Assembly (NCBI GenBank): GCA_944389435.1
Contig: CALXMI010000052.1
Coordinates: 544-64,543, forward strand
Direction of reading: 5' to 3'
DNA length: 64,000 nucleotides
Source: an uncultured Opitutales bacterium
GTDB lineage: Bacteria > Verrucomicrobiota > Verrucomicrobiia > Opitutales > UBA9783
Below the pieces are notes generated by a model, which worked only from the letters and a program-made list of their open reading frames with translations, was not told the origin of the DNA and did no database searches. The translations under genes and the position numbers were made by a program. Of this stretch, positions 26,217 to 64,000 are shown piece after piece (within the stretch, counting starts at the first letter, position 1; every line of letters begins with the position of its first letter).

Positions 26217-26693
26217 TCAAATACGTAACATAGGATTAAGATTGGTGTCAACCCTTAACGCTTGTTCCATTACAGTACCATTGTTTTGTGTAAATTCAAG
26301 ATAGATTTTCTGTACATTTCGGACCGCGGCAATAAAGAGGTCGAAGGCTTTTATAAATTTATACTCGTCCAAATCCTCTATGAGAAACCTTCGGTACAGG
26401 AGTATTCGTTGCGAATCATCTTCAAGGGCCAATGTACTTCCGTAAGTCTTATGTCCCCAAAGATTTAACCTCAGAAAAAACTCTAATGATTTCTTTATGT
26501 CCGTCGAATCCGTTAAAGTCACAATAGGCGCACAAAAATAAACATAGGCGCTTGCCTCCGGCACATTAACAACATATTCTTGGTCATCGCTATCACGTGC
26601 TGCAAACGTTCCATTCGGATTTAAATGGAAAATCTTACCGCCCGTAAGCCCATATTGACGAACCCAAACATTAACTTGTTCTTTTGTTGTCAT
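26217..26693 (-). CDS. CesT/SycE/YbjN-superfamily (type III secretion chaperone-like fold) protein
   Basis: 158 aa. The pattern '...AYVYFCAPIVTL...FFLRLNLWGHKTYGSTLALEDDSQRILLYRRFLIEDLDEYKFIKAFDLFIAAV' matches the class I chaperone / YbjN layout. Its ATG overlaps the clpC TGA (ATGA at 26690-26693). Confidence 0.6.
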   Translation of the reverse strand: MTTKEQVNVWVRQYGLTGGKIFHLNPNGTFAARDSDDQEYVVNVPEASAYVYFCAPIVTLTDSTDIKKSLEFFLRLNLWGHKTYGSTLALEDDSQRILLYRRFLIEDLDEYKFIKAFDLFIAAVRNVQKIYLEFTQNNGTVMEQALRVDTNLNPMLRI

Positions 26694-29278
26694 TTTACAG
26701 ACACCTCTTTACAATGTAGTTGCTTTTTTGAAGTTGCCTGTTTCTTTTTAGATTTCTCGCTTGAACTTGAAAAACGTAATAGATTGTTATCTAACGAAAA
26801 AGTCACCCGTTGCCCTGATTTTATTTTACCTTCCAATAAGCCGTCTGCCAACGCATCTTCGACGTGCCGTTCGATGGTACGCCTAAGTGGCCGTGCTCCC
26901 ATTTTAGCATCAAACCCTTTATCAACAAGAAATTTTTTAGCTTCCCGATCCAAACAAAGTTCAACTTTGTTCTCAGCAAGACGTTCCCGTAACTTATCCA
27001 GCTCAAGGTCAACAATAGCCAGCATATGCTCTCGCGTCAAAGGCCTAAAGATAATAGTCTCGTCGATACGGTTCAAAAACTCGGGCTGAAACGCCGATTT
27101 TAACGCCTCTTGAACATTCGACTGTATCTGCTCAAATCTTGCCGTTTGTGAGGGTATACCAAATCCTAAACCTGTATCTTTTTGCAACGCTTGAGCCCCC
27201 ACATTGGAAGTCATAACAATGATAGTGTTCTTGAAATCAACACGACGCCCCAATGCATCCGTCAGATGGCCTTCTTCCAAAACCTGCAAAAGAATTTGAA
27301 TAACATCCGGATGCGCTTTTTCTATCTCGTCAAAAAGCACAATTGAGTAAGGCTTTCTACGAACAGCTTCTGTCAACTGCCCACCGTCTTCATGGCCAAC
27401 ATAACCCGGAGGCGAACCAATCAGCCTTGCGACCGTATGCTTTTCCATGTATTCAGACATATCCAGTTGAACAATGGCTTCCGGACGTCCAAAAATCTGC
27501 TCTGCCAAAATCTTAATGAGATACGTTTTTCCAACACCCGTAGGCCCTAAGAACATGAAAGAACCTATCGGTCGCTGGGGATCGCGAAGGTTGGCACAAG
27601 ATCGTTTTAAGGCCCTGGTAAGCGACGAAATGGCTTCTTGTTGGCCCACCACACGTTCTTCTAAAATCTTGTCCAAATTCAAAAATTGTTGCAACTTATG
27701 CGTGCGCATGCGTTCAATAGGAACACCGGTCCAATCAAAAACAATATGCTGCAAGGTTTCTTCCTTTACTAGAATCTTTTTTGTTTTTGAATTTCTCTTC
27801 CAATTTTCTAACAATTGGCTCCGTTCAGCAATCAACGTCTGCTCTTTATCGCGCCAACGAGCCGCTTCTTCAAATTTTTGATCGTTTATGGCTGTAAATT
27901 TTTTCTGATTTATAGCCTGAATAGCTTGATCTAAGGTTTCTGTCGAAGGCGCTAACATCGCACCCATGATCTTGGTTCGAGCACCCGCTTCATCCAGTAA
28001 ATCAATCGCCTTATCAGGGAAAACGCGATCGGTAACGTAACGCTGCGCAAGACCAACGGACTGCTCTAAAATAGCATCCGAATAGCGAACATTATGGAAA
28101 TCCTCGTAATGCGACTTAATACCTTCTAAAATCTTTAGAGTGTCTTCTGTAGAAGTTGGCTCGACTAAAATGGCTTGAAATCGACGATTTAAGGCCATAT
28201 CCTTCTCAATATAGCGTCGATACTCATCCAATGTGGTTGCGCCAATACACTGCAGTTGTCCACGAGCTAACACCGGTTTTAGTATGTTAGAAGCATCCAT
28301 GGAACCTTCCGCCGAACCCGCTCCCACGATGGTATGAAGTTCATCCAAAAACAGAATAATATTCGAACCTTTAACTTCGTCCATGAGGTTCTTCAAACGT
28401 TCTTCAAATTGTCCACGATACTTCGTGCCCGATAACAGAAGGGCCAAATCCAAGTTGTATATCGACTTATTAACCAATTCTGCAGGTACTTTTCCTGCGA
28501 CTATATGCTGAGCCAATCCCTCAACCACAGCCGTTTTACCAACACCAGCTTCTCCAATCAGCACCGGATTATTCTTGGTTCGGCGGCACAGGACCTGTAT
28601 CAAACGTTGAATCTCTTTCTCACGCCCAATAACAGGATCAAGCTCTTTATTTCTTGCTTTTTGCGTCAAATCCAAACCGAAATTCTTTAAAATAGAAGGT
28701 TTCGTTTTGCTTGTCCCTAACGAAAAAAACGAATCGTCGTTATCAAAATCGTCGTCTATCGAATCGTCATCGTTATACAAATCCTCATCGTCGTCATCGT
28801 CATTTTTATTGGGCATCATTTCGGCCAAAATTTCATGCTTACAGGTCTGAGGGTCAATATCAAGCACCTTCAAAATTCGAGCCCCTAACCCCTTGCCTTC
28901 TTCCAATAAACCTAACAAGAGATGTTCGGTCCCAATGTAAGTGTGCTGAAAATCTTTAGATATCTTCTCTGCAAATTTAAAAACTTTCTGTACGCGTGGC
29001 GTAACTGGAACGTCGGTTGAATTTTTTGATATTTTTTCAACGCAAGCGTAATCCACCTCCTCGGTTTTTCCAGACGCAACATGTTGCAACAACGTATCGT
29101 GAATGGTGTCAATATCCAAGCCAATCTTTTGAAGAACCCGAACGGCAATACTCTGCTTGAGCTCTAAAAGCCCTAACAATAAATGTTCGGTCCCTAAGCA
29201 CTTATGTTGAAACTTCAAAACAAATTTTTTGGCTAAAACAAAAACTTGCTGTGCCTTGGGTGTTAAATTATGAAACAT
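26690..29278 (-). CDS. clpC: ATP-dependent Clp protease ATP-binding subunit ClpC
   Basis: 862 aa. Two Clp-N repeats ('[10 protein letters not shown]' x2), Walker A '[15 protein letters not shown]' and '[15 protein letters not shown]', Walker B 'ILFLDELH' and '[11 protein letters not shown]', UVR-like '[12 protein letters not shown]', and a ClpP-loop candidate 'GLGFG'. Confidence 0.95.
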
Positions 29279-30344
29279 AGCTGCCTCCTTTCACTTTTAA
29301 GAAAAAAGGATCGTCTATTTTTGAAAAATAGGCACGCAAAACATCTGCTCGGACTTTGTCTATTGTTAAAACGTCCTTGCTAAAGAATTCTTTCAAGCAA
29401 ACGGACGACATAGATTGCCAAAGCCTAAGAACGGCACGACGTTTTTTATTAGAAATAAATCCCATATCTATGGCCATTAAAACAATCGAAAGTAAGTTCA
29501 TAGACTCCTCGTAAGATATTTCATAACAACGGCCCAATAACCCTAACGAACGACTGATACTATCTTGTAAAAGTGTTATATTATCCTTTGCCACCACCTC
29601 ACGTGCCCGATGTTCTAACTGGCACAATCGTTGCGCCATGTTGTTCACGTGATCTAAGAGGGTGTTTTCATCGCCCCCCAACGCGTCTAAATTGGACAAA
29701 AAGAAAAGATGACCCATTATTTTATCCTTATCCAGGTGGGCTGGGAGCAAACTTAACTGTAGCTCTTGTGTAGCTTCTAAAAGGGTCGGCAGCTTTTTTA
29801 AAAAACAAAGGGCTGGCAAATGCAGATACGTTTCCGCCACAAGCCCACAACCTAAATCGTGCGGGTTGCTGGTAAAGTACCCCCATGTAGGATCAAAGGC
29901 GTAAGTCAAATTTTGTTCCAACAAAGAATCTAACGCGTCCAATTTTTTCCACATCGTTTTAAGTTGCAAACGAGACAAAGTAAGCTGTAACTGTACATGA
30001 TCACCATTGTTAGCAATAACCTGCACGTGTTGCTTGGGATGATACCATATAACGGTCTCGTCACACGGAAAGTCCAGGTAGAACAGGTTTTTTAGAAGCT
30101 CTTTTTCGTTAGAATTGCAATCACTCCACCTAAGCTCAACACATTCGTCTAAAGGCAAAATAGGCGCGAAAGCCTTATACAAACGTTCCACGATCGCCTG
30201 TTTTTGAGCCGAAGATGCTTGACTCGAAAATGGAATATTTTCGATATTACGTGATAAGCGCACACGATTCCCCATCCACACGGAAGCATTATCTACTTTC
30301 GTTTTTGTTTCCCATATATCACGAATCTCTTGCCTTATACTCAT
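29268..30344 (-). CDS. mcsB: McsB-like ATP:guanido phosphotransferase homolog with degenerate catalytic motifs (probable pseudokinase)
   Basis: 358 aa. The N-terminal 'GNRVRLSRNIENIPF' and 'TYLHLPAL' are McsB-like. However 'NEEDH' is 'NNGDH', 'CP(T/S)N(L/V)GTGLRA' is 'NPHDLGCGLVA', and 'RG..GE' is 'LPAHLDKD'. It overlaps the clpC start by 11 nt. Confidence 0.8.
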   Translation of the reverse strand: MSIRQEIRDIWETKTKVDNASVWMGNRVRLSRNIENIPFSSQASSAQKQAIVERLYKAFAPILPLDECVELRWSDCNSNEKELLKNLFYLDFPCDETVIWYHPKQHVQVIANNGDHVQLQLTLSRLQLKTMWKKLDALDSLLEQNLTYAFDPTWGYFTSNPHDLGCGLVAETYLHLPALCFLKKLPTLLEATQELQLSLLPAHLDKDKIMGHLFFLSNLDALGGDENTLLDHVNNMAQRLCQLEHRAREVVAKDNITLLQDSISRSLGLLGRCYEISYEESMNLLSIVLMAIDMGFISNKKRRAVLRLWQSMSSVCLKEFFSKDVLTIDKVRADVLRAYFSKIDDPFFLKVKGGSYVS

Positions 30345-38071: not shown

Positions 38072-38797
38072 ATGTTGAGGAGTCGAAAAAAAGGATTTAC
38101 GTTGGTTGAAGTGATTATTGCAGGAACCTTGTCGACTATTGTGTTGGCAGGCATCATGCAGTTTTTTTTAGCTCAACTCAATCAATACCGTCTTATTTCT
38201 GGGTATAATAAGTTAAATGAGTCATTGCGAATTTTCGGAAAATTCTTTGAAAAAGACGTACACAATGCATTGTCGTTTTATGTATTTTCATCAGAAGGAA
38301 ACTCTACGACTTCGGGAACGGCTTTGAATTTTACAAAAGCAAATATGTCGTCATACACCTTTCCTAAGGTTGGCAATTGTCTACTGCTGATTGAAGAACG
38401 CGGTATGATTTCTGGAGGCCGAGGCACGCTCTATTACGTAGGTTCATCCATCGTTAGAAATGGACAGCTGTGTTATCCGCTTTACAGGACGCTTGTTACC
38501 TTTAATACATCCAATAAGATCGCAGAGACGGCATCTAGTTTTTCCAACCTTCCTGTTGCCTACTTAAAGCCAAATGCCGATGAAACGGGGCCTGTAACCT
38601 TTTTCAGTTACGGTGGATCCACAGGGATTTTTTACTTAAATTCGCGAAAAATGATCGATACTGAGGGCATTTACACCCCTGGATGCCGTCATGGAGTTTA
38701 TTTTAAAGGCACTATGCTTGAACCAGGCTTACATGGGCAATCCGCTGAGTTGACGACGCAGTTTTGTTTTTTCTCGCGCAATCCAAGATTCCTGTAA
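38072..38797 (+). CDS. Prepilin-type (class III signal) minor-pilin-like protein, GspJ/PilW-sized
   Basis: An ATG at 38072 is preceded by 'aagagg'. 'MLRSRKKG/FTLVEVIIAGTLSTIVLAG' has Gly-1 and Glu+5. The track start (GTG at 37949) lies inside the gap terminator and is rejected. Confidence 0.8.
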   Translation: MLRSRKKGFTLVEVIIAGTLSTIVLAGIMQFFLAQLNQYRLISGYNKLNESLRIFGKFFEKDVHNALSFYVFSSEGNSTTSGTALNFTKANMSSYTFPKVGNCLLLIEERGMISGGRGTLYYVGSSIVRNGQLCYPLYRTLVTFNTSNKIAETASSFSNLPVAYLKPNADETGPVTFFSYGGSTGIFYLNSRKMIDTEGIYTPGCRHGVYFKGTMLEPGLHGQSAELTTQFCFFSRNPRFL

Positions 38798-38838: not shown

Positions 38839-40014
38839 ATGTTGTTTTTTTGCAAGGTGTTCAGCACGCATGAAATCTGGAAGTGGCGTTGCGTCTTTGC
38901 ATCTTCACATCGTCAATGTTTACGCAAGTTGCTGGGCAGAAACGACTACTGCAGTCAGGTTTTTAGCGTAGGCGATATTTTTGAAAAAATTTTTAAAAGG
39001 CTTGATTTACCCCCCATTCAAGAGAAGCATTGGCTTATCTTTTTTGAAAAATTACGCGCTCAACTTTCTACATCCATATCTCTGATAAATGCTTTACGGC
39101 AAATGGCGGATATGCCTTTTAACCATTCTTTGCAGTATTTTATCGCCAAGGCCATTGATCGTCTTTCGAACGGCTTTTACATGTATCCCTTATTGAGCGA
39201 TCCGCGATTAAACTTGGGCCAGCAGTCGATAAAGCTTTTGCAATCGGCGGAAGTCGGCGGTTATCTGCCGCAAGCCTTAGAACGACTGATAGAGCTTATG
39301 CATCTACAGCAAAAAATCCGAAAGCAAATGCTACAGAGTCTTATTTATCCAACCTGCGTTTTAGTGACCATCGTTGTATTTTTACTACTGATGAGTTCTT
39401 TTTTACTCCCTCAGTTTGAGGCATTTTTTATCCAACAAAGCATACCGATAAATGATTTTTTGAGCTTTTTATTCCACTCAAACCGCCACTTAGGCAAAGT
39501 TTTTATGATCGCCGGTGTAGGTTTTTGCGGGTTGTATCTCTGGATGAAGACTAAAAAAATTTCTGTACAAAATGGACTTAATCGTCTCTTAAGCCATTGG
39601 TTCCCGTCTTTTAAGTATACACTGTTCGCAATGAATTTAGCTGAGCTTTTAGAAAACCAAATACCGCTACTTGAATGTTTAACCTTAGCTGCGGAAAATT
39701 TGCCCAAAAAGTTCTCTGTCGATAAAATGTCTGTTGCTTTATCGAATGGCATACGGCTGTCTATGGCTTTAGAAGACTTGCCTGAGGATTTTTCTCACGT
39801 CTTACAAACATCTGAGGTTGACAATCGATTGATACAAAATCTACGGCAATTATCTGCGGATTATTACAAGCGTTACGAAAATCAGTTGCTAGGGTTATCC
39901 AAATGGCTCGAACCAGTTAGCATTTTGCTCATGGCATTGATTTTGTTTTTAGCAGTCGCCTGTTTGTTTTACCCCCTACTGCAGGTTTTTCAGTCAATGA
40001 AGTTCGAGCTATAA
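38839..40014 (+). CDS. gspF: GspF/PilC-family inner-membrane platform protein
   Basis: 391 aa. It has two T2SSF-like repeats, each ending in TM segments ('...LIYPTCVLVTIVVFLLLMSSFLLPQF', '...LEPVSILLMALILFLAVACLFYPLLQVF'). Confidence 0.85.
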   Translation: MLFFCKVFSTHEIWKWRCVFASSHRQCLRKLLGRNDYCSQVFSVGDIFEKIFKRLDLPPIQEKHWLIFFEKLRAQLSTSISLINALRQMADMPFNHSLQYFIAKAIDRLSNGFYMYPLLSDPRLNLGQQSIKLLQSAEVGGYLPQALERLIELMHLQQKIRKQMLQSLIYPTCVLVTIVVFLLLMSSFLLPQFEAFFIQQSIPINDFLSFLFHSNRHLGKVFMIAGVGFCGLYLWMKTKKISVQNGLNRLLSHWFPSFKYTLFAMNLAELLENQIPLLECLTLAAENLPKKFSVDKMSVALSNGIRLSMALEDLPEDFSHVLQTSEVDNRLIQNLRQLSADYYKRYENQLLGLSKWLEPVSILLMALILFLAVACLFYPLLQVFQSMKFEL

Positions 40015-40095: not shown

Positions 40096-42822
40096 ATGGA
40101 CATTCGTTATACCCGAAGGAAGCGACACCGTGGAAATGTCGTTTTTACTTCATTGATTTTTTTATTTATCTTAACAGGAACGTTACGCCTATGCGTTAAC
40201 AAAACGCTTCTTGAAAGTCGCCAGACATCCCTATTTATTCAAGAAACGCAAGCATATTACCTATCCGAAAATTTGATGTCCCTAGGTCGCGACTACGTTT
40301 ATCAAATGATGCAAAATCCTAGAGAAACCAACATTTTCTTAGGTACAACTGCGTTTTACGACAAAGATAAATCGATAACAGCAAACGGCATCATTGATTT
40401 CAATGGATCGCTCAGCAAGCAGCAAATTGTACCCGACGATTTCCCGTTACAAATAGAAGATAATTCTTGGAGCATAAAAGGCGGTCCTGTTTTCTGGCAA
40501 AGCAACAACAAAAACATCAACGACGAACGCTATTTATCGGAAATTTACCTTATAGGCAAATTCGATGTCAATTCTGCTTTCATGAACGATTGGACCTATC
40601 GTATGGTACAAACCATAGAAATCGAACGTAATCCTCTGTGCGATTTTTCCCTTTATGCCGAAGGAGATTTGGCTATACGAGTACAAAATGTTACAGACAC
40701 CACTTTTGAAAAACCTGTACAAATCAACGGAAATGCACGTTATTATAGGATACACACACAAGATCAAGCTAAAGGCTTCGGTCGTAGTACAAGCAGCTTC
40801 AATATTGCAGGACATTTTCTAAGAATTAACGAAAACGATACAACATCCACCTTTAGCTCTATAAAAATTCCAGATAAGTATTGTTTGTACGACAATAGCT
40901 CCTTTTACGATAACTTTAAAAACCCTTACTTGCCTAAAAGTGCTGGCAAGTATTATTCTTCTTTTCATCTTCTCGACAAGGAACTTTTAAACTATTACAG
41001 TAATGCAACCAATCCTGCTTATAAAAACTATGAACATTATATCTATAAAACCTTTAAAGGCAAATTTTTGACACGCAGCCGTATTTATCGCCCATGTGGG
41101 TTTGATCCAGAAAACGACTGGGGCTATTGGTGGCCGATCGAAGATGGCGGAAAATCGGCTAATGCTCGTCTGTTGGACTACGTGACCGGCATGCATAACC
41201 TAACCGACTCTTCGAAAGTAAGCAGTTCTAGGATCTTTACCAACCGAATAGGAAACATTAAAACTGCATTTAGTTCTTTGAGAGGATTAAATGAGTATCA
41301 ATTGACCGAAAAAGCTCGATTGGTTGAAATGCAAAAATTATGCAATCATCCGCATCTTCAATTAAAACTATTAATTTCCTTCTCCGAAAGCACCGGTATA
41401 TCCACTACAGTCGACACCTTTTACACACGCTATGGGTTAAGTTGTTGCAAGTCAGCTGAAAATAATACCTTTGCTCCTAATCCCATCTTTCATCCAGCAA
41501 AAGATAATATCTTTATCAGTCGTTACTATGCTCTGATAAATCAGAAAAAGTATATTTATGATGCAAGTATGCGTTACTCTGAAGATGAAGGTGTTGCTTT
41601 TTATAAAACAAATGAAAATAACATACCTACAGCAAGTAACAGCATCGAATCTAATTACTATTTTAATAAAATAGACAATGGAAAATTATGTTGTCATACA
41701 AAAAGTAAAGACCCAACCTACACGGGTGAAGTTTATTACAATACAACCTATAACACCACACCAACTTCTTCAACAGATATTAATTTCGGCCCACATAAGC
41801 TCGTTGAATCGACTGAAAATTATAATCACTGGGAACCAGATGCAACCGCCACACCCGTTGTGCCAGATTCCAATACGCCCATTTTCATGTACGACCGAAA
41901 TCGTGCAAAATGGATACAAATTATCGACATTGATGTTGCTAAATTATGTAACATAAGCTCAGACAATTGGAAAATTTACAATCATACTTTAGCCGTTAAC
42001 ACATATTGGGTTGGAGCAAACCTAGGGCCACGTAATTATACAGTAGGCACAAACGATATTAGAAAAAATTATATCACAAATCGAACAAATGAAACCTCTT
42101 TTACACCTAAAAACACTAACGTTATTGATATTGGCGTTCGCCTCATTAACGCATCAAAGATTCCAACAGGTGGCTTAACGATTTGGTGCCCTTATCCGCT
42201 CTATATTAAAGGGGATTTTAATACTACCGATACACAGCCAGCTTTCATCGTAACTGATTCCTTAACTGTTTTAACGAATTCCTGGGCAGATTGGCGAAGC
42301 ATGGTAGATCCCTACGATAGTTACTTCAACAACATGACAGGACTGTATTCCTATCGCTCACAAACACCACCTACCATCAAAGCCCATATTATGACTGGCC
42401 GCACCCATCCGAATTACTGGCTCACCAGCGATAAATCTAAAATTTCTCCGGACGGTGGCCATCGCGAAGCCATTCGTACACTAGAACCCATGAACGACGT
42501 TATACCCTTGTACGGCTCATTGCTGTTGCCGTATTATTGCAAAGAACAATGGGAGCCACCGATCAACTTTCAAAAATGGGAAACGGCTGGTTTCTATCCC
42601 TGTTGTTTAGAGCTTCACTCCTTAGACACAAAGATCCCAGCTGGAATGACGTTTTACCACAAGGTTAATCGTGGCCGTAAAACTCAGGCCATTGGCCCAA
42701 CTACGTACAGCATCCTCGAAGGCAGTACACTTTGGAGTAAGGATTGGTCAAATATCAGCAACGTATTTTCATCCTACCACAACGCTTTGCCAAATTACCT
42801 AAAATACGAAACCGCCCCGTAG
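40096..42822 (+). CDS. 908-aa protein with a PilX-N-like uncleaved N-terminal anchor; otherwise unknown (candidate filament tip/cap protein)
   Basis: The ATG at 40096 gives 'MDIRYTRRKRHRGNVVFTSLIFLFILTGTLRL' (basic stretch plus hydrophobic helix, no G/F cleavage motif). The body is rich in N, Y and T. The C-terminal region contains 'GGLTIWCPYPLYIKGDFNTTDTQPAFIVTDSLTVLTNSWADW'. Confidence 0.8.
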   Translation: MDIRYTRRKRHRGNVVFTSLIFLFILTGTLRLCVNKTLLESRQTSLFIQETQAYYLSENLMSLGRDYVYQMMQNPRETNIFLGTTAFYDKDKSITANGIIDFNGSLSKQQIVPDDFPLQIEDNSWSIKGGPVFWQSNNKNINDERYLSEIYLIGKFDVNSAFMNDWTYRMVQTIEIERNPLCDFSLYAEGDLAIRVQNVTDTTFEKPVQINGNARYYRIHTQDQAKGFGRSTSSFNIAGHFLRINENDTTSTFSSIKIPDKYCLYDNSSFYDNFKNPYLPKSAGKYYSSFHLLDKELLNYYSNATNPAYKNYEHYIYKTFKGKFLTRSRIYRPCGFDPENDWGYWWPIEDGGKSANARLLDYVTGMHNLTDSSKVSSSRIFTNRIGNIKTAFSSLRGLNEYQLTEKARLVEMQKLCNHPHLQLKLLISFSESTGISTTVDTFYTRYGLSCCKSAENNTFAPNPIFHPAKDNIFISRYYALINQKKYIYDASMRYSEDEGVAFYKTNENNIPTASNSIESNYYFNKIDNGKLCCHTKSKDPTYTGEVYYNTTYNTTPTSSTDINFGPHKLVESTENYNHWEPDATATPVVPDSNTPIFMYDRNRAKWIQIIDIDVAKLCNISSDNWKIYNHTLAVNTYWVGANLGPRNYTVGTNDIRKNYITNRTNETSFTPKNTNVIDIGVRLINASKIPTGGLTIWCPYPLYIKGDFNTTDTQPAFIVTDSLTVLTNSWADWRSMVDPYDSYFNNMTGLYSYRSQTPPTIKAHIMTGRTHPNYWLTSDKSKISPDGGHREAIRTLEPMNDVIPLYGSLLLPYYCKEQWEPPINFQKWETAGFYPCCLELHSLDTKIPAGMTFYHKVNRGRKTQAIGPTTYSILEGSTLWSKDWSNISNVFSSYHNALPNYLKYETAP

Positions 42823-43902
42823 CTCGCTAAAAAGCTTTTCTGTGAAGGATAACGTACGCGGAGGAACTTCTGTCCAAGATTGAAAAAGAATGCCTCGTAA
42901 AAACGTCCGCTGCAAATCTTCCGCATATCCGAAGTTTTTCAAACGCTGGATAACCTCTCGTACAGAACCTGCGTGAAAGGTTGCTAACGTACAATGGCCT
43001 GTTATCGATGCATTAACTGCCAACTTTAGTTGTTGCGGTGTACGAATTTCTCCAATGCCCACCACATCGATAGCCTGCCTTAAAACATTACGCAGCAACT
43101 GTGGCGCGGTCTCGTTTGAAAGCTTGATCTGAACAAGAGAGGGCTGTGGTAATTCTATAGGGTCTTCCAAACTTAACACACGCTTATGATCTAACGTTTT
43201 TAATAAGCGATAATAGGATGTTGTCTTACCATTACCAATGGGGCCCGAAATAAGCCATAACCCTAACCCGCATCCTTTGAATGCAGCTGCAAATTTTGTC
43301 CGGAGCAACCCATCTTGGTAATCGGCTTCCGTACGTTTTTCAGAAAGTAATCGAACAACAAAACTTTCGCCATGTAAACACGGAAGGGTAGACACACGAC
43401 AACTCATGCTATCGTTGGGTAAAAACACCTGAAATTGGCCATTTTGTGGATGTAACCGATCCGTAGTATTCAGACTGGCCTTCAATTTTATGAGATTCTC
43501 AAAAGCTTTTTGCGTGGATTGATCAACCGACTTAAAACGTAGCAGTCGCCCTTGCCGTCTTATATAGATGGTCGCCCCTTTCGCATTTGGAATAAAATGC
43601 ACATCTGAAGCCTGCTGATAAAAACTCTCTTGTAAGATTTGCGTAAGCTGCTTAGAAATGGGTTTTACGCTATGATCCGTATCAGAAACATCGTTAAAAC
43701 AAGCCATTTTGAGCTCATCAGCAAAGACTTTGTTGTCAATATATTCCAGTAAAACCTCTTTGCCGTAAAATTGACTTAAGTAATGGACCATCTGCACAGT
43801 TTGTGGCGTTATAGGCTGCCTAACTTTACAAAGCATCTGATCCCTGTCAATGTGCACAGGGATGATTCCTGCCTTATTCAAGCAATGTTTACTCAATTGC
43901 AT
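42799..43902 (-). CDS. Short GspE/PilB/ComGA-type secretion ATPase (copy 2)
   Basis: 367 aa. Walker A 'GPIGNGKTT', 'LSLEDPIE', 'DVVGIGEIR', His box 'TGHCTLATFHAGS'. There is no C-terminal Cys4 domain. It converges on and overlaps the 908-aa gene by 24 nt. Confidence 0.85.
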   Translation of the reverse strand: MQLSKHCLNKAGIIPVHIDRDQMLCKVRQPITPQTVQMVHYLSQFYGKEVLLEYIDNKVFADELKMACFNDVSDTDHSVKPISKQLTQILQESFYQQASDVHFIPNAKGATIYIRRQGRLLRFKSVDQSTQKAFENLIKLKASLNTTDRLHPQNGQFQVFLPNDSMSCRVSTLPCLHGESFVVRLLSEKRTEADYQDGLLRTKFAAAFKGCGLGLWLISGPIGNGKTTSYYRLLKTLDHKRVLSLEDPIELPQPSLVQIKLSNETAPQLLRNVLRQAIDVVGIGEIRTPQQLKLAVNASITGHCTLATFHAGSVREVIQRLKNFGYAEDLQRTFLRGILFQSWTEVPPRTLSFTEKLFSELRGGFVF

Positions 43903-56031: not shown

Positions 56032-56342
56032 GACCTCTCTTTATCTCTTTATTGACCTCCTTTACACCACGCTCACACTCCAACGCTTCTTCTATCACAG
56101 ACATTTCCAGACTCAATTTTCCAAAACTAAAGCTATATTCCATCTCAAAGAGGAACGCTTACTGAAATCCTTTTCTTTGCATCTTTGGATGTCTAATTCT
56201 GTCAGTAATCTATTTGTTGGAGCTTTCGAAGGAACGTGATCCATATTCTTGTATCTCGCAAAAATTCTCACAAAAACACTACCGTATTCTAAAAAATCAC
56301 CCAACTGCGCAACAACCTTCCTTAGAAAAAAAGTTGCAATAT

Positions 56343-57755
56343 GTGCGTAAATCCTTTACTTTAGAGTCTGTGAAGGCGTATCGAAACCTATTAATCTTGC
56401 CTGCGTTTTGTTGTTTGCCCCTAGTTTTATCGGCCAGTAACAACGAACGAAGGTGGAATTTTTGGATAGAAAAAAGGACGACGCCTGACGAAACTCAATC
56501 GTTTGTTCGGCCCATTGGCGCCAGTTATGAGACAAAAGAGCGAATCGAGAATTTCTTTTTTTATCCTTTTGGCTGGGAATATCGTCAGCCCGATCGTCGT
56601 TACGCTTCTGCTATATTTAGCCTTGTTCAGTACGATTACCATAACGGCCCAACCCCTTACCGCGAAGGGAAGGTTTTTCCTTTTGTTTACTTTAAAAAAG
56701 GCGTAAACAAAGAAGCTGATTATGCAGCTGTTTGGCCTTTAGGTGGAACCGTCAAACCTTTCTTGGGATGCGACCAAATTAGCTGGTTCATGTGGCCCCT
56801 ATGGGTAAAAACTCAGAACAAAGGTGTCGTAAGCCGCTGGATGCCTTGGCCGTTTATTAATTGGCGTAAGGGTGACCACTGTGGTTTTGGATTTTACCCA
56901 CTTGGCGGTCATTTTTATAAAAAAGACGAATTCGACGAACGTTACTTTTTATGGCCTCTGGGATACCACCATAACCATTGGAAGCAAAACACCTACAAAT
57001 GTGGATTTCTGCCATTTTACACTTACGAAAAAAGTCCTAACGTAAAAGACCTATCGATCGTTTGGCCGTTTTGGGGCCATCGAATTGAAAACAAGCCTCA
57101 TTATGAAGAACATCGCCTTTTATGGCCATTATGGGTCCAAGGACGAGGCGAATTACGTACGGTAAAACGCTGGGCGCCTTTCTATACATTTTCAGAGATT
57201 AAAAACGATTCAAATTACCAAAAGACTTGGTATGCTTGGCCCTTCTTTAAGTTTCTATCTTGGACCGAACATGGCGTAAATATTCAACAGGAACAATTTT
57301 TGTATTTTTTATTTTGGCATCAAGAACAGTTCCATGCCCAAACGGATGAATTTTTAGGCAGCAAGACCCACGTCTGGCCCCTCTATTCTTATTGGGACGA
57401 TGGTCATGGACATAAACAATTGCAATCTTTGAGCCCCTTTGAGGTGTTTTTTCCCGGTAACAAAGTCGTACGCGACGTTTATACGCCCTTATTTACCCTT
57501 TTTCGATACGAAGAAAAGGATGGTTCCATACAACAATCTTGCTTGTTTAAGCTATTTCAGGAGAAAAGAGATAAAGAGGGCACAAGCCTGCATTGTCCAC
57601 TTTGTTTAGACTATAAAAATACTCGGCAAGAAAAAAGCTTTTCAATTTTAAAAGGTTTATTAGAATATAAGAAAGCCGGCAGTGAAAAGACGTTTCGGTT
57701 GTTTTGGATTCCGTTAGGAAAGGCAAAAATCGTAAAGGATAACAGGCTGTTATGA
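56343..57755 (+). CDS. Secreted aromatic-Pro-Leu/Phe repeat protein (~19-residue period), unknown family, translationally coupled to mlaE
   Basis: The track ORF is 56214..57755 (TTG), and there is no ATG in the first ~190 codons. A GTG at 56343 gives a signal-like 'MRKSFTLESVKAYRNLLILPAFCCLPLVLSA/SNN'. About 16 motifs of the type (W/Y/F)P(L/F) follow: FYPFGW, VFPFVY, VWPLGG, MWPLWV, PWPFIN, FYPLGG, LWPLGY, FLPFYT, VWPFWG, LWPLWV, WAPFYT, AWPFFK, VWPLYS and others. The stop overlaps the mlaE ATG (ATGA at 57752-55). Confidence 0.75.
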   Translation: MRKSFTLESVKAYRNLLILPAFCCLPLVLSASNNERRWNFWIEKRTTPDETQSFVRPIGASYETKERIENFFFYPFGWEYRQPDRRYASAIFSLVQYDYHNGPTPYREGKVFPFVYFKKGVNKEADYAAVWPLGGTVKPFLGCDQISWFMWPLWVKTQNKGVVSRWMPWPFINWRKGDHCGFGFYPLGGHFYKKDEFDERYFLWPLGYHHNHWKQNTYKCGFLPFYTYEKSPNVKDLSIVWPFWGHRIENKPHYEEHRLLWPLWVQGRGELRTVKRWAPFYTFSEIKNDSNYQKTWYAWPFFKFLSWTEHGVNIQQEQFLYFLFWHQEQFHAQTDEFLGSKTHVWPLYSYWDDGHGHKQLQSLSPFEVFFPGNKVVRDVYTPLFTLFRYEEKDGSIQQSCLFKLFQEKRDKEGTSLHCPLCLDYKNTRQEKSFSILKGLLEYKKAGSEKTFRLFWIPLGKAKIVKDNRLL

Positions 57756-58495
57756 AAGTATTAAAAGACTGGCAATATGCGTTCGTTTTGTTGTGGCAGA
57801 CGTTTAAGGAGTTGCGTTATTTGCCGCGTCAATGGCAACGTTGTATTGAACACAGCTGCAACATGGGCTACAAAACCTTCCCAATTGTTGGAATTTTGAG
57901 CCTATTTATGGGCGGCATCCTAGCTCTACAGACCGGTTACAGCCTGAGCAATTTGCCGGGAGCACAAACCTTTTTAGGCAGTATCGTAGGACTATCCATG
58001 TGTCGAGAATTGGGGCCCTTAATGACCGCATTCTTGCTCACTGGTAGGGTCGGTTCGGCCATCACGGCAGAGTTAGCTTCCATGTCCGCCTACCAAGAGA
58101 TTGACGCTCTGAAGACAATGAATCTTTCACCGACGCGTTTGCTTGTCATGCCACGCGTCCTGGGAGGATTATTAATGATGCCCTTATTGACCATGTTCTC
58201 AAATGTTTTGGGTTGGATAGGCGGCTGGTTTGTTGTAAAAACGGTAGACGTTATTTCCATTGACGGAGGTACTTACTGGAGGAGCTTACAACAATTTGTC
58301 GACTTGGACAGCCTAAATGACGGCCTTGTTAAAGCAGAAATCTTTGCCCTAACCATCATTCTTATGAGCTGTTCCATCGGCCTCAGGACCTTTGGCGGTC
58401 CTCGAGAAATAGGCGCATCCGTAACCAGTACACTTGTGCAGACAATGATCGCCATTTTAACCTTAGATTACTTTGTAACCAAACTCTTGTTATAG
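57752..58495 (+). CDS. mlaE: MlaE-type ABC permease
   Basis: 247 aa with the MlaE/YrbE layout ('CRELGPLMTAFLLTGRVGSAITAELASM'). Confidence 0.9.
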   Translation: MKVLKDWQYAFVLLWQTFKELRYLPRQWQRCIEHSCNMGYKTFPIVGILSLFMGGILALQTGYSLSNLPGAQTFLGSIVGLSMCRELGPLMTAFLLTGRVGSAITAELASMSAYQEIDALKTMNLSPTRLLVMPRVLGGLLMMPLLTMFSNVLGWIGGWFVVKTVDVISIDGGTYWRSLQQFVDLDSLNDGLVKAEIFALTIILMSCSIGLRTFGGPREIGASVTSTLVQTMIAILTLDYFVTKLLL

Positions 58496-58497
58496 AC

Positions 58498-61450: not shown

Positions 61451-61903
61451 ATGAAGAACAAGTTTTTAAGTCAATGTAGAGGGTTCTCCCTCATGGAAAT
61501 ATTGATCGTACTAGCTCTTATGGGCATGCTGCTAGGGTTGGTCATTTTCAACTCAGAATCGATTTTTGGTGGTGGCCAGAAAAAAGTCGCCAAGTTGTTT
61601 GTTTCAAAAAGCGTGGATATTCCGCTCATTGCGTATCGTTCACATATTGGCAGTTATCCTTCTACAGAAGAGGGCTTAAGTGCTCTACTGAAAGCACCTA
61701 TGGGAAAATCTTCACGCTGGCAAGGGCCTTACATCAAAGATCGTGAAAGTTTAGTAGACCCCTGGGGCAATCCTTACCAATACCGATATCCAGGCGTTCA
61801 TAATCCCAACAGTTACGATGTTTGGTCTATGGGGCCGGGCGGACAAAGTGGCGATGACGATGACATTGGCAATTGGGACAACAATGACGAAAGCGAAGAT
61901 TAA
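61451..61903 (+). CDS. gspG: Type II secretion major pseudopilin GspG
   Basis: 'CRG/FSLMEILIVLAL', 'YPSTEEGLSALL', 'DPWGNPYQYRYPG', 'YDVWSMGPGGQSGDDDDIGNW', plus an acidic tail. Confidence 0.92.
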   Translation: MKNKFLSQCRGFSLMEILIVLALMGMLLGLVIFNSESIFGGGQKKVAKLFVSKSVDIPLIAYRSHIGSYPSTEEGLSALLKAPMGKSSRWQGPYIKDRESLVDPWGNPYQYRYPGVHNPNSYDVWSMGPGGQSGDDDDIGNWDNNDESED

Positions 61904-61911
61904 TTGCTGCA

Positions 61912-62397
61912 ATGCCAGGTAATCGAAAATGCGCCTTTTCTTTAATCGAGGTGCTATTAGTACTGGCCCTGTTTGGATTAATAGGGTCTGTATGTGTCAT
62001 CAATTTTGACGTCGTACAAAAGGTCTTTTCCTCTGGCAATACGCAATGGATAACCTTGATAGAGGAAGCCGTTCAAGAAGGGCGGCTTTTGGCCTCTAAA
62101 GATCACTGTGTTGTTTTTTTAAAACAGGACGAAAAAAACCTTTCCTTGTATAAAAGGCCTCAGGAAATTTTGAGAATATTTCCTTGTCCTGCGACGGAAG
62201 ATACCTGTCATTTTGTATCCGGAGTATTGACCGAAAATGGCCTATTGCGCCCGTCTGAGCAAAAAATATCGCAAATCGAAATCAACCCAGACGGCTTTGT
62301 CAAAAGCGCATTCGTTGTCATTAATGGTGAAGAAGAACAAATTTATTCCATCGATCCACTAACAGGGATTTTTAAACAAACGGAGACATCCTTATGA
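61912..62397 (+). CDS. gspH: Minor pseudopilin, GspH-like by position
   Basis: 'NRKCA/FSLIEVLLVLALFG' (Ala at -1, Glu at +5). It is the second gene of the gspG operon. Confidence 0.6.
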   Translation: MPGNRKCAFSLIEVLLVLALFGLIGSVCVINFDVVQKVFSSGNTQWITLIEEAVQEGRLLASKDHCVVFLKQDEKNLSLYKRPQEILRIFPCPATEDTCHFVSGVLTENGLLRPSEQKISQIEINPDGFVKSAFVVINGEEEQIYSIDPLTGIFKQTETSL

Positions 62398-62810
62398 AAC
62401 AAACACGTACGGGTTTTACCCTTATCGAAGTGGTTGTGGCGCTGACGCTGTTTTCCATCTCTGTACTTGTTCTAACACAAAGTTTTATGAATGGTCTAAT
62501 GTGCAAAACAACATTAGAAAAGGAAGACACCAGACCATTTGTTCTCTTCACGATCCGACAACAACTATACGAAATGGAACGCGATAAGGTTACCGCTACC
62601 CACATTATTCCTTTTCCTGACAATGAAACAAAAGTCGAATGGCAAGGCTCCGTAGAGTTTTCAAAAATTTTGAACCTATACAAAGTAAGTGTAAAAATCA
62701 AGGACCAAGACGAACCGTTATACATTTGGCTGCATCGTCCCGATTGGATGACGAACGACGAAAGAAGTACGGTTCAACAAAAGTGGTTAACCGAAACAAA
62801 TGATGCGTAA
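62394..62810 (+). CDS. gspI: Minor pseudopilin GspI-like
   Basis: 'MKQTRTG/FTLIEVVVALTLFSISVL'. 138 aa, third gene of the operon. Confidence 0.7.
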   Translation: MKQTRTGFTLIEVVVALTLFSISVLVLTQSFMNGLMCKTTLEKEDTRPFVLFTIRQQLYEMERDKVTATHIIPFPDNETKVEWQGSVEFSKILNLYKVSVKIKDQDEPLYIWLHRPDWMTNDERSTVQQKWLTETNDA

Positions 62811-63519
62811 GAAAGGTTCAGGTTTTACGCTTATAGAGGTGGTTGTTGCTCTTTCTTTGGGCGGACTCATTCTAACCTCCATCATGTCGTTGCTCGTTGG
62901 TTTTTTGTATGCCTGGGAAAACAAAAAGACGCCTTATGAACTCTTTGTTCAACACGTGGATGCGTGCATGCGTTTCCTGGATAAAGAGTTGAATACGTTT
63001 GTCCCCATTTACCAAGGGAAATCGGTTGAATATGAAGCTTATCAACCCGTAAAGTTGAGTTTCAAAAATAAATCTGAACAGAATATTTTTGCCTTTGGTG
63101 GGCTCAAACAAACTCCGTTATTCTTTGTAGAGGACAATGCCTGCATCGCTTGGCGAATCTTGTTTTTGTCTCCAGAAGGGCTTTGTTTAGCCATAGAAAC
63201 TCCTGAAACCGTTGCCAAACGTTTACAAGAAGGCGTAGAAGCCACCGGTAAAACCGTGCAACAATGTTTTATATTAAGTCCTTACGTCAACAAGCTTGAA
63301 TATGGCATTTTAAATGAAGACAGAAGTACATGGGAATTTGCAACAACCATCGAACAATACGCTAAGCTTTTCCCGAAAAAAACAGACATAGGCCGTCCTC
63401 ACGGCTTACGTGTAACGTTCAAACAAGAAGATTGGGAATTGACGCGATTTATCTCTTTAAAAACAATCAAAAAGACCGATGACAAAAAACTTCAACGAAA
63501 GGTCCCCCATGCGCAATAG
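62800..63519 (+). CDS. gspJ: Minor pseudopilin GspJ-like
   Basis: 'MMRKKGSG/FTLIEVVVALSLGGLIL'. 239 aa, fourth gene of the operon. Confidence 0.7.
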   Translation: MMRKKGSGFTLIEVVVALSLGGLILTSIMSLLVGFLYAWENKKTPYELFVQHVDACMRFLDKELNTFVPIYQGKSVEYEAYQPVKLSFKNKSEQNIFAFGGLKQTPLFFVEDNACIAWRILFLSPEGLCLAIETPETVAKRLQEGVEATGKTVQQCFILSPYVNKLEYGILNEDRSTWEFATTIEQYAKLFPKKTDIGRPHGLRVTFKQEDWELTRFISLKTIKKTDDKKLQRKVPHAQ

Positions 63520-64000
63520 GCAAACCCTTGGGGCTGTTCTCATCATGGTTTTGGGTATGCTGATGGTTTTGTCAGCTCTGGTCGGCCTGTTTTTATCGGA
63601 AGTTACAAGAGATGTCCAGCTTCGATTCCAATTGTCGGGAAAGATAAACTTGAAGCATGAAGCTTACAACATTATGGATATCGTTCAAAGTCAATTGGAA
63701 GAACATCTAACCTTCAGCCAAGCTCCGCTTCCAAAAAATCCATTAAAAAACATTGCGTTGAATTTGCCGGAATCCTTACAAGTAGTCGTTGAACTCACAG
63801 ATGAATCTGGTAAACTTCCCCTAAACGAAATAAATCAGACGATGCTGACGGCTATTTTTCATTTATTTGGAGACATTTGGGACGCTCAAAAATTGGCCCG
63901 AGATTATATAAAATGGATCAAACGCAAGCCCGTACGAAGTCAGATAATAGAGTCCTGGAATAAGTCGTCTACCTTCAAACAATTACCTGAAGAAAAAAAT
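63509..64000 (+). CDS. gspK: GspK-like minor pseudopilin, 5' part (runs off the right edge)
   Basis: Not in the track because there is no stop in the window. ATG is at 63509, and I read 164 open codons to 64000. 'MRNRQTLGAVLIMVLGMLMVLSALVGLF' and 'LTDESGKLPLNEINQTML' fit the GspK 'D-E-x-x-K-x-N-x-N' region. Confidence 0.75.
   Translation, partial: MRNRQTLGAVLIMVLGMLMVLSALVGLFLSEVTRDVQLRFQLSGKINLKHEAYNIMDIVQSQLEEHLTFSQAPLPKNPLKNIALNLPESLQVVVELTDESGKLPLNEINQTMLTAIFHLFGDIWDAQKLARDYIKWIKRKPVRSQIIESWNKSSTFKQLPEEKN

What the first reader, a model, noticed from the sequence alone, without database searches (positions are those of the whole stretch)
40096..42822. 908-aa Asn/Tyr/Thr-rich protein anchored like a minor pilin but without a prepilin cleavage site
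The N-terminus 'RRKRHRGNVVFTSLIFLFILTGTL' looks like the PilX-N / GspK-type anchor: a basic stretch plus a hydrophobic helix, with no Gly-Phe cleavage motif and no Glu+5. The remaining ~870 residues carry no motif I can name and no obvious internal repeat. A conserved-looking C-terminal block is present ('GGLTIWCPYPLYIKGDFNTT...AFIVTDSLTVLTNSWADW'). Its size and position between the platform and the ATPase suggest a filament tip, cap or adhesin (a PilY1/GspK functional analogue). That role is inference.
Basis: inference. Interest (0 to 1): 0.55.

Follow-up and report, generated by a model that had tools for sequence, protein, structure and literature searches.

The report
Giant tip-type minor pilin, gut Verrucomicrobia
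This unannotated 908-residue protein is most likely an oversized cap subunit of a pilus-like filament, a distant relative of PilX, GspK, ComZ and HpsA, and its roughly 350-residue central part matches nothing known.

Summary
The ORF at 40096-42822 (+), 908 aa, is real and largely as described. It is about 2-fold enriched in Tyr and Asn, has one N-terminal hydrophobic helix and shows no internal repeat.

About 40 full-length homologues (37-46% identity) exist, all labelled hypothetical. All come from gut, rumen or termite Opitutales/Puniceicoccales MAGs.

No family model or PDB entry matches the protein directly. Profile comparison gives two collinear links to a widespread family of about 560-aa "PilX N-terminal domain-containing pilus assembly proteins":
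- Residues 598-889 match the family's C-terminal domain (99.7% probability, E 1.6e-25).
- Residues 1-246 match its N-terminal part (95% against one alignment, 37% against a second).

That family has three properties that matter here:
- It matches the C-terminal region of cyanobacterial HpsA.
- It sits in minor-pilin operons.
- One member folds like the Thermus tip pilin ComZ (Foldseek E 5e-8).

One correction is needed. A Gly is conserved at position -1, as in GspK and PilX, so cleavage by prepilin peptidase is not excluded.

Two caveats remain. The position between platform and ATPase is seen only in this window, not in about 20 homologous loci. The function of the head domain is unknown.

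The parts
40096..42822 (+). Gene for the 908-aa protein, proposed to be a K-type (apical) minor pilin with a giant head.
   Evidence: ORF listing and translation. About 40 full-length homologues.
40096..40134 (+). Basic leader, aa 1-13 (MDIRYTRRKRHRG), ending in the conserved Gly13. This is a candidate -1 position for prepilin peptidase.
   Evidence: Family N-termini. Cleavage itself is inferred, not shown.
40135..40314 (+). Long N-terminal helix, aa 14-73. Its hydrophobic first third (aa 14-34) has Thr at +5 in place of Glu. The conserved motif QETQ.YYL.EN follows.
   Evidence: AF2 helix 14-73. Hydropathy. Weak ComGG_2 match over aa 9-62. hhalign to the PilX_N family.
40315..40833 (+). Beta-rich region, aa 74-246. 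It has long strands at 146-159 and 166-180, then short strands carrying the motifs NPLCDF.LYAEGD and VQINGN.
   Evidence: AF2 pLDDT of 83-93 up to about aa 190. Collinear hhalign to aa 1-227 of the compact family (95.4%, E 1.8e-8; 37%, E 3.5e-4).
40834..41886 (+). Lineage-specific central expansion, aa 247-597. It is the least conserved part and matches nothing.
   Evidence: hhalign to the compact family gives 0.1% probability. Column identity 0.54. No Pfam, PDB or Foldseek match.
41887..42693 (+). Conserved C-terminal domain, aa 598-866, shared with PilX_N/HpsA-like proteins. It contains YDRNRAKWIQ..DIDV, the GLTI..PLYIKGDFNT...DSLTVL..W.DW block (aa 692-733) and LPYYC.EQWEPPINF.
   Evidence: hhalign 99.7%, E 1.6e-25 and 99.5%, E 2.9e-22. 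963 representative proteins share it. The relatives match NCBIfam EPS_HpsA positions 1320-1440.
42634..42696 (+). Predicted terminal beta-strand, aa 847-867 (IPAGMTFYHKVNRGRKTQAIG). It is a candidate for the in-cis C-terminal strand that completes the pilin sheet.
   Evidence: AF2 strand 853-866. It aligns with the last strand (543-554) of the compact relative P0185. Pairing with the N-terminal sheet could not be checked.
42694..42819 (+). Family-specific C-terminal tail, aa 867-908, with the conserved motif LPNYLKYE.
   Evidence: Alignment A1. The tail is absent from the compact family.
38072..38797 (+). Prepilin-type pseudopilin, 241 aa from M42 of the 282-aa ORF (RKKG|FTLVEV). It is probably J-class (PilW/GspJ/ComGF/HpsC-like).
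   Evidence: Pfam N_methyl, E 2.2e-5. Weak NCBIfam matches to PpdB, ComGF, HpsC and GspJ.
38839..40014 (+). Inner-membrane platform protein of the GspF/PilC/ComGB family.
   Evidence: Pfam T2SSF, E 3.8e-26. NCBIfam ComGB and GspF matches, both below their cut-offs.
42799..43902 (-). Short GspE/PilB/ComGA-type assembly ATPase (367 aa), convergent with the gene and overlapping it by 24 nt.
   Evidence: Pfam T2SSE, E 1.2e-53. The best NCBIfam match is the ComGA core.
61451..64000 (+). Second pseudopilin operon with GspG, H-like, I-like, J-like and K-like genes. The K-like gene starts at 63509 and is cut by the window end. It probably supplies the filament and a conventional small cap.
   Evidence: GspG scores above its cut-off (102 bits against 88.85). 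N_methyl motifs are present. The fragment gives a weak GspK match.

Best explanation
The gene encodes a very large member of the K class of minor pilins (PilX/PilK, GspK, ComGG, ComZ, HpsA/PilX-EPS). These are the apical subunits of the complex that primes and caps type IV filaments.

**Proposed mechanism (inferred).**
1. The basic leader and hydrophobic helix insert the protein into the inner membrane. Prepilin peptidase may cut after the conserved Gly13.
2. The N-terminal helix and the sheet behind it form a pilin-like module. The absence of Glu5 marks this subunit as the top one, with nothing above it.
3. A bulky head of about 700 residues sits between that sheet and a conserved C-terminal strand. 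The head consists of solenoid-like rungs related to the PilX_N/HpsA family plus a lineage-specific part of about 350 residues. The terminal strand probably returns to complete the pilin sheet.
4. The subunit associates with a J-class pseudopilin, one of which is encoded two genes upstream. The complex is lifted by the GspF-like platform and a GspE-like ATPase, on a filament probably built from the GspG pseudopilin encoded 19 kb away.
5. The head then acts as a tip plug and/or adhesin. Its ligand is unknown.

**Shown:** the sequence features, the remote homology, the context of relatives and the fold of a relative.

**Inferred:** cleavage, incorporation at the tip, the partner proteins and the function of the head.
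For: **Sequence features.**
- Basic leader, conserved Gly, about 20 hydrophobic residues and Thr/Ser at +5 across the family.
- AF2 model with pTM 0.82: helix 14-73, then a beta domain.
- Weak ComGG_2 match over aa 9-62.

**Remote homology.**
- The profile search finds 963 representative proteins sharing the C-terminal block.
- Two of ten sampled relatives reach Pfam PilX_N. Several give weak GspK matches at the N-terminus and EPS_HpsA matches of E 1e-13 to 1e-22 at the C-terminus.
- Sources name these relatives 'PilX N-terminal domain-containing pilus assembly protein'.
- hhalign: aa 598-889 at 99.7%, E 1.6e-25; aa 1-246 at 95.4%, E 1.8e-8. Both alignments are collinear.

**Context of relatives.** All four remote relatives examined lie in minor-pilin operons (L008, L009, L010 and L024).

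**Fold of a relative.** The compact relative P0185 was modelled at pLDDT 92. Its only significant PDB match is the Thermus tip pilin ComZ, 6qvi (E 5.3e-8, probability 1.0).

**Local context.** A J-class pseudopilin, a platform and an ATPase flank the gene.

**Literature.**
- K-type subunits lack Glu5 and are apical. Where PilY1 is absent they carry large insertions before the C-terminal strand (PMC13533445).
- Cyanobacterial PilX, including HpsA, is a pilin fold with an inserted beta-solenoid and is proposed to be a tip plug or adhesin (bioRxiv 10.64898/2026.02.12.705559).
- ComZ is argued to fit only at the tip (PMC6561018).
Against: - The protein reaches no curated threshold. There is no PilX_N, T2SSK or PilY1 match. 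ComGG_2 scores 16.7 bits against a cut-off of 40, and only 2 of 40 family members touch HpsA, at E about 0.01.
- Its own AF2 model has no PDB match below E 0.07 and none to ComZ among the matches listed. The ComZ link is therefore indirect.
- The N-terminal homology is only 37% probable against the second alignment.
- In about 20 homologous loci no platform, ATPase or matching pseudopilin lies within 7-8 kb. The recurrent neighbour there is an uncharacterised lipoprotein.
- Asn or Asp at +1 is unusual for a prepilin peptidase substrate.
- No prepilin peptidase or secretin gene lies in the window.
- A conventional small K-like gene already exists at 63509.
Confidence: 0.7

Rival explanations
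1. The protein is an exapted pilin relative. It descends from a K-type minor pilin but no longer joins a filament. It stays anchored in the inner membrane by an uncleaved signal anchor and acts in the periplasm or envelope, perhaps together with the conserved lipoprotein of about 370 aa encoded next to many homologues.
For: - About 20 homologous loci lack pilus genes nearby.
- Ten of them have a convergent conserved lipoprotein. That lipoprotein family is confined mainly to the same clade.
- The residue at +1 is polar, Asn or Asp.
- A regular K-like gene already sits in the GspG-K operon.
Against: - The Gly at -1, the pilin-like helix and the terminal strand are all strongly conserved (column identity 0.75-0.81 for the helix). 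This is what continued assembly into a filament would predict.
- In this window the gene lies between a J-class pseudopilin with platform on one side and an ATPase on the other.
- A distant long Verrucomicrobia relative sits directly after an I-like and a J-like pseudopilin gene.
- The lipoprotein is not always adjacent. In one MAG it lies on a different contig.
Confidence: 0.17
2. The protein is a periplasmic or secreted carbohydrate-active enzyme or binding protein with a Sec-type signal anchor. It would be unrelated in function to pili, and the beta-rich head would be a catalytic beta-helix.
For: - The Tyr/Asn/Thr-rich composition is typical of glycan-binding surfaces.
- The compact relative gives faint structural similarity to solenoid adhesins and ice-binding proteins, with E above 0.7.
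- There is a weak Peptidase_S6 match (E 0.003, 17.5 bits against a cut-off of 23.3).
Against: - No enzyme family is matched in Pfam, NCBIfam or PDB by sequence or fold.
- The collinear homology to pilus assembly proteins covers both ends of the protein.
- Relatives are encoded in minor-pilin operons.
Confidence: 0.08
3. The protein is a DNA receptor at the tip of a competence pilus, working as ComZ does. The neighbouring short ATPase and platform would be ComGA- and ComGB-like parts of a DNA-uptake machine.
For: - The best NCBIfam matches of the four local genes are ComGA, ComGB, ComGF and ComGG.
- The fold of the compact relative matches ComZ.
Against: - All four Com matches are below their cut-offs. 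The other ATPase in the window also matches ComGA best, so these matches reflect short length and not function.
- No comEC, comEA or dprA gene was seen in the window.
- The protein is not basic overall. Lys and Arg are both below the window average.
- The closest sequence link is to HpsA-type proteins, not to the Com type.
Confidence: 0.05

Closest known systems
Compact 'PilX N-terminal domain-containing pilus assembly proteins' (about 550-600 aa; NC10/Methylomirabilales, Syntrophus, Binatia, Verrucomicrobia)
   Same: - Collinear profile homology at both ends.
- The same leader, Gly and hydrophobic helix, without Glu5.
- The same motifs: P.F.F..Y...DLE / V..NG; R..K...V..IDV..L; VRL.N...LP..GLT....P.Y.KGD.NT...PA....D..T.LS..W.D.
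- The same terminal strand.
   Different: - The window protein is about 350 aa longer in the middle and has a 40-aa tail.
- It does not reach the Pfam PilX_N threshold.
- Its close homologues are usually not encoded in minor-pilin operons.
HpsA / PilX-EPS of cyanobacteria (NCBIfam NF038301; hps locus of Nostoc punctiforme)
   Same: - The C-terminal conserved domain is shared, through the compact family.
- HpsA is also a very large K-type subunit encoded with pseudopilins (PMC4284469, PMC6495340, bioRxiv 10.64898/2026.02.12.705559).
- The neighbouring pseudopilin gives a weak HpsC match.
   Different: - There is no direct match for the window protein. Only 2 of 40 family members match, at E about 0.01 against a cut-off of 400 bits.
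- HpsA is about 1500 aa and is linked to glycosyltransferases and gliding motility. Here the host is a gut verrucomicrobium, and no hps-like glycosyltransferase set flanks the gene.
ComZ of Thermus thermophilus (PDB 6qvi)
   Same: The architecture is a pilin fold with a large beta-solenoid inserted before the last strand, which is argued to fit only at the pilus tip (PMC6561018). The compact relative matches it structurally (E 5.3e-8).
   Different: - No sequence similarity is detectable.
- The window protein's own model did not give a significant match to ComZ.
- ComZ binds DNA. Nothing here suggests DNA binding.
GspK / XcpX (type II secretion) and ComGG (Com pilus)
   Same: - The leader ends in Gly, and Glu5 is absent.
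- The proposed role is apical, with a C-terminal strand supplied in cis (PMC13533445).
- Weak ComGG_2 match on the window protein, and weak GspK matches on relatives.
   Different: - GspK is about 300-330 aa and carries an alpha-helical insertion in the middle of the sheet. ComGG is about 120 aa.
- No T2SSK domain is detected here.
- The window has a separate small GspK-like gene at 63509.
PilY1 / PilC tip adhesins
   Same: Similar size and a similar proposed place at the filament tip. K-type subunits with large insertions are proposed to replace PilY1 where it is missing (PMC13533445).
   Different: PilY1 has no pilin-like N-terminal helix and has a C-terminal beta-propeller (Pfam T4P_PilY1). 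Neither a propeller nor a PilY1 match is present.

Membership tests
K-class apical minor pilin (PilX/PilK/GspK/ComGG class) | Class III-type N-terminus: short basic leader, Gly at -1, about 20 hydrophobic residues. | tested here: met
   RRKRHRG|NVVFTSLIFLFILTGTL. The Gly is conserved in all complete family N-termini, and there is a single hydrophobic segment at aa 14-34. The residue at +1 is Asn or Asp, which is unusual.
K-class apical minor pilin (PilX/PilK/GspK/ComGG class) | No Glu at position +5. | tested here: met
   Position +5 is Thr in the window protein and Thr or Ser across the family. PMC13533445 states that K homologues invariably lack Glu5.
K-class apical minor pilin (PilX/PilK/GspK/ComGG class) | Pilin fold: a long N-terminal helix packed on an antiparallel sheet, completed by a C-terminal strand. 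| tested here: inconclusive
   AF2 secondary structure fits: helix 14-73, long strands 146-159 and 166-180, terminal strand 853-866, pTM 0.82.
K-class apical minor pilin (PilX/PilK/GspK/ComGG class) | Encoded with I- and J-class minor pilins and the assembly machinery. | tested here: inconclusive
   In the window a J-class pseudopilin, a platform and an ATPase are adjacent, but no I-class gene is. In about 20 homologous loci none of these is adjacent. Remote relatives do lie in minor-pilin operons.
K-class apical minor pilin (PilX/PilK/GspK/ComGG class) | Processed by prepilin peptidase and located at the filament tip. | not testable with these tools
   This needs N-terminal sequencing or mass spectrometry of the mature protein, and immunolabelling.
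Pfam PilX_N (PF14341) | Match at or above the gathering score (25.5 bits). | tested here: not met
   No match at E <= 0.1 for the protein or for its first 135 residues. Of ten relatives sampled, only P0073 passes the threshold (29.4 bits), and P0064 falls just short (25.1). The link for the window protein rests on hhalign alone.
NCBIfam EPS_HpsA (NF038301) | Equivalog score of at least 400 bits over the full length. | tested here: not met
   No match for the window protein. Only 2 of 40 family members match, at E about 0.01. Only the C-terminal domain is shared, and only through the compact family.
GspK (NF037980 / Pfam T2SSK) | GspK profile match and an alpha-domain insertion within the pilin sheet. 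| tested here: not met
   No GspK or T2SSK match. The head is predicted to be mainly beta with scattered helices.
ComZ-like solenoid pilins | Structural match to ComZ: a pilin fold interrupted by a beta-solenoid. | tested here: inconclusive
   The compact relative P0185 matches 6qvi at E 5.3e-8, although the TM-score is only 0.26-0.28. The window protein's own model gives no significant match.
PilY1/PilC tip adhesins | C-terminal beta-propeller (Pfam T4P_PilY1), and no pilin-like N-terminal helix. | tested here: not met
   No PilY1 match. The protein does have a pilin-like N-terminal helix.

The most novel reading that the evidence does not exclude
Gut and termite Opitutales/Puniceicoccales have evolved their own giant cap for a type II-secretion-like pseudopilus. 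The cap is a K-type subunit whose head carries a module of about 350 residues with a previously unseen fold. It is duplicated in tandem in some genomes, is often paired with a clade-specific lipoprotein, and would serve as a host-glycan or mucus adhesin or as a surface sensor. On this reading a second, alternative tip complex (this protein plus the extra J-class pseudopilin) re-purposes the same GspG machine, much as cyanobacteria prime two different filaments with two minor-pilin sets.
Probability: 0.3. Interest if true: 0.65.

Novelty: new variant of a known kind. Interest (0 to 1): 0.45.

Why it matters
K-type minor pilins decide how type IV filaments and type II secretion pseudopili start, and what sits at their tip. 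Work from 2026 argues that lineages lacking PilY1 solve the tip problem by inflating the K subunit.

This protein extends that idea to Verrucomicrobiota of animal guts. The subunit is about 100 kDa, is invisible to every curated family model and is annotated only as hypothetical.

It gives a concrete candidate for the surface-contact or adhesion organelle of poorly studied gut Opitutales. It also supplies a new domain for structural study, and it shows that such proteins can be recognised by their two conserved ends.

Tried and rejected
**Searches that found nothing useful.**
- Direct Pfam and NCBIfam scans gave only sub-threshold matches: Peptidase_S6 at 17.5 bits against 23.3, and ComGG_2 at 16.7 against 40. 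Peptidase_S6 was dismissed as noise.
- PDB sequence searches with the protein and with profiles A1, A2 and A3 gave only noise: PrgK, cofilin, IL-20, ATP synthase subunit b.
- Foldseek of the protein's own model gave nothing below E 0.07. The TraM/VirB8 and SPLUNC1 matches have TM-scores below 0.3 and were not used.
- hhalign of the central 351 residues against the compact family found no relation.
- NCBIfam scanning of all 40 family members found HpsA in only 2 and ComGG in only 3.
- The promoter and terminator scan of 37.7-44.7 kb gave counts at or below the shuffled expectation, so it says nothing about operon structure.
- Pfam, NCBIfam and homologue searches on the recurrent lipoprotein neighbour returned only hypothetical proteins.

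**Hypotheses tested and weakened.**
- The idea that gene order is conserved was tested on about 20 homologous loci and failed.
- The idea that this is a Com (competence) system because all four local genes match Com models best was rejected. The unrelated second ATPase also matches ComGA best, and all scores are below their cut-offs.
Full report
**1. Observation**

The ORF runs from ATG 40096 to the stop at 42820-42822 on the plus strand and encodes 908 residues. An upstream TTG at 40060 would add 12 residues. Homologues begin about 12-14 residues before the conserved Gly, and a 98%-identical database protein is called at 908 aa. Both facts favour the ATG.

Compared with 20 other proteins of the window, Tyr (2.3x), Asn (2.2x) and Thr (1.7x) are enriched. 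Self-BLAST shows no internal repeat. The only strongly hydrophobic stretch is aa 14-34.

The neighbours are as described:
- A prepilin-type pseudopilin. Its N_methyl motif starts at aa 44 of the 282-aa ORF, so the real start is probably ATG 38072.
- A T2SSF-family platform at 38839-40014.
- A short T2SSE-family ATPase at 42799-43902 on the minus strand, convergent with the gene and overlapping it by 24 nt.

**2. The immediate family**

A search of 5.8 billion proteins returned 40 hits. Nearly all are 870-1120 aa, 36-46% identical and full-length. None carries a Pfam domain and all are called hypothetical. The named ones are Puniceicoccales MAGs.

A scan of one genome per species found 13 loci. 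All are in Opitutales, Puniceicoccales or other Verrucomicrobia MAGs from human gut, rumen or termite gut.

The alignment shows strong conservation at both ends and a more variable middle. Mean column identity is 0.72 for aa 1-246, 0.54 for aa 247-597 and 0.66 for aa 598-908. Some genomes carry two or three tandem copies (L015 and L003).

**3. The N-terminus**

Every homologue with a complete N-terminus has a basic leader, then Gly, then [N/D]-T-F-x-T-S-L-x-F-L-F. Position +5 is Thr or Ser.

This is the layout of GspK, PilX and ComGG-type subunits: Gly at -1 and no Glu5. It is not the layout of a protein without a peptidase site. Whether cleavage occurs cannot be decided here.

NCBIfam gives a weak ComGG_2 match over aa 9-62 (E 0.0085, below the cut-off).

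**4. Remote homology**

A profile of the family was searched against 1.84 billion representative proteins. It found 963 proteins at E <= 0.001.

Sampled members of this group show the following:
- Two of ten reach a Pfam PilX_N match.
- Several give weak GspK matches at their N-terminus.
- Nine of ten give NCBIfam EPS_HpsA matches, seven of them at E 1e-13 to 1e-22 over HpsA positions of about 1320-1440.
- Their sources name them 'PilX N-terminal domain-containing pilus assembly protein' or 'Tfp pilus assembly protein PilX'.

Profile-profile comparison of the two alignments gave these results:

| Window residues | Matched region | Probability | E-value |
|---|---|---|---|
| 598-889 | compact family 347-559 | 99.7% | 1.6e-25 |
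| 598-863 | second alignment, 342-553 | 99.5% | 2.9e-22 |
| 1-246 | compact family 1-227 | 95.4% | 1.8e-8 |
| 4-276 | second alignment, 2-234 | 37% | 3.5e-4 |
| 247-597 | none | 0.1% | - |

The matches at the two ends are collinear. The protein is therefore an expanded relative of this family, with the same two ends and a lineage-specific central region of about 350 residues.

**5. Context of the relatives**

Three compact relatives lie in minor-pilin operons:
- L008: two N_methyl genes directly upstream.
- L009: an N_methyl gene on one side and an N_methyl/PpdB gene on the other.
- L010: a cluster with several N_methyl genes and a PilY1 gene.

A distant long relative from Verrucomicrobia (889 aa, L024) follows directly after an I-like and a J-like pseudopilin gene.

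The close 900-aa homologues differ. None of about 20 loci has a homologue of the window's platform, ATPase or pseudopilin within 7-8 kb. Ten of them have a conserved lipoprotein of about 370 aa, convergent and downstream. Several have fabH and a hydrolase gene upstream.

The position 'between platform and ATPase' is thus peculiar to this window and adds only modest weight.

**6. Structure**

The AF2 model of the window protein has pLDDT 75 and pTM 0.82. Its main elements are:
- A 60-residue helix, aa 14-73.
- Long strands at 146-159 and 166-180.
- Short strands through aa 243.
- A mixed, less confident middle.
- A confident C-terminal core (pLDDT about 90) that ends in a long strand at 853-866.

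Foldseek against the PDB found nothing below E 0.07.

A compact relative, P0185 from a Verrucomicrobia MAG, was modelled at pLDDT 92 and pTM 0.87. It has the same order of elements, a run of 3-residue strands typical of a solenoid, and a terminal strand at 543-554. Its only significant PDB match is ComZ of Thermus thermophilus, 6qvi (E 5.3e-8, probability 1.0). The global TM-score is low, at 0.26-0.28.

ComZ is a pilin fold with a large inserted beta-solenoid, and it is argued to fit only at the pilus tip (PMC6561018).

The window segment IPAGMTFYHKVNRGRKT aligns with the terminal strand of P0185.

**7. Fit with published work**

HpsA was long described as a protein of unknown function encoded with the pseudopilins HpsB-D (PMC4284469, PMC6495340).

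A 2026 preprint (10.64898/2026.02.12.705559) classifies cyanobacterial PilX proteins, with HpsA as the 'PilX-EPS' subfamily. It describes them as pilin folds interrupted by a beta-solenoid before the last strand, and proposes that they plug the tip and act as adhesins.

A 2026 PNAS paper (PMC13533445) makes three relevant points:
- K-type subunits invariably lack Glu5 and are apical.
- A C-terminal strand licenses tip-complex assembly.
- Systems without PilY1 often carry a large insertion in the K subunit between the sheet and that strand. CpaL and the K homologues of the Thermus and Vibrio cholerae competence pili are given as examples.

The window protein fits this description in every sequence-level respect that could be tested.

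**8. Wider system in the window**

Three further observations bear on the system:
- A second cluster at 61451-64000 encodes GspG (above the NCBIfam cut-off), H-like, I-like and J-like pseudopilins, and a small K-like protein that starts at 63509 and is cut by the window end.
- A second short ATPase lies at 4305-5486 on the minus strand.
- No secretin or prepilin peptidase gene lies in the window.

The most economical reading is a dispersed type II-secretion-like machine. It would have two alternative caps: a small conventional K subunit, and this giant one paired with an extra J-class pseudopilin. This is inference.

**9. Verdict**

The protein is best described as a new, very large and lineage-restricted variant of the K-class apical minor pilin. 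It is related at both ends to the PilX_N/HpsA-like family and, through that family, to ComZ in architecture.

It is not a member of any curated family by threshold. What its head does is unknown. Tip plug and adhesin are the leading ideas, taken from its relatives.

The main rival is that this clade has detached the protein from filaments, which the non-pilus gene neighbourhoods of most homologues suggest.

Noticed in passing
window 61451-64000 (+): A second pseudopilin operon. It encodes GspG (150 aa, above the NCBIfam cut-off), an H-like (161 aa), an I-like (138 aa) and a J-like (239 aa) pseudopilin, and a small GspK-like ORF. The last starts at 63509 (MRNRQTLGAVLIMVLG..., no Glu5) and runs off the window end.
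   Followed up: partly
window 4305-5486 (-): A second short T2SSE-family ATPase (393 aa, 30% identical to the one at 42799-43902). It also matches the ComGA core best. It lies next to ychF and is not in a pilus cluster.
   Followed up: partly
L004 10871-11980 (-); also L003, L006, L007, L012-L015, L021: A conserved lipoprotein of about 370 aa (LLGGCQT... lipobox) lies convergent and directly downstream of the 900-aa homologue in 10 of about 20 loci. It has no Pfam or NCBIfam match, its family is found mainly in Puniceicoccales/Opitutales, and no copy lies in this window.
   Followed up: partly
L003 10001-18650; L015 3944-9847: There are three (L003) and two (L015) tandem paralogues of the 900-aa gene, about 40% identical to the query. 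This points to diversification of the head, as seen for surface-exposed proteins.
   Followed up: no
window 56214-57755 (+): A 513-aa ORF with no Pfam match. It is rich in recurring W-P-L/F motifs (VWPLGG, MWPLWV, LWPLGY, VWPFWG, LWPLWV, AWPFFK, VWPLYS). It lies directly upstream of three ORFs (57752-60275) that were not scanned. By eye these look like a multi-pass permease, a Walker-A ATPase and a membrane-anchored protein.
   Followed up: no
window 42799-42822: The 3' ends of the 908-aa gene and the convergent ATPase gene overlap by 24 nt, and no terminator-like hairpin lies between them.
   Followed up: partly
L005 11174-12672: In one homologous locus, a tubulin/FtsZ-family gene (376 aa) and a small N_methyl pseudopilin (123 aa, MKQHCGFSLIELL) follow the 944-aa homologue.
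   Followed up: no
window 26690-30344 (-): A ClpB/ClpC-type AAA+ chaperone (862 aa) is followed by an ATP:guanido phosphotransferase (358 aa). The pairing resembles McsB-ClpC, which is unusual outside Firmicutes.
   Followed up: no
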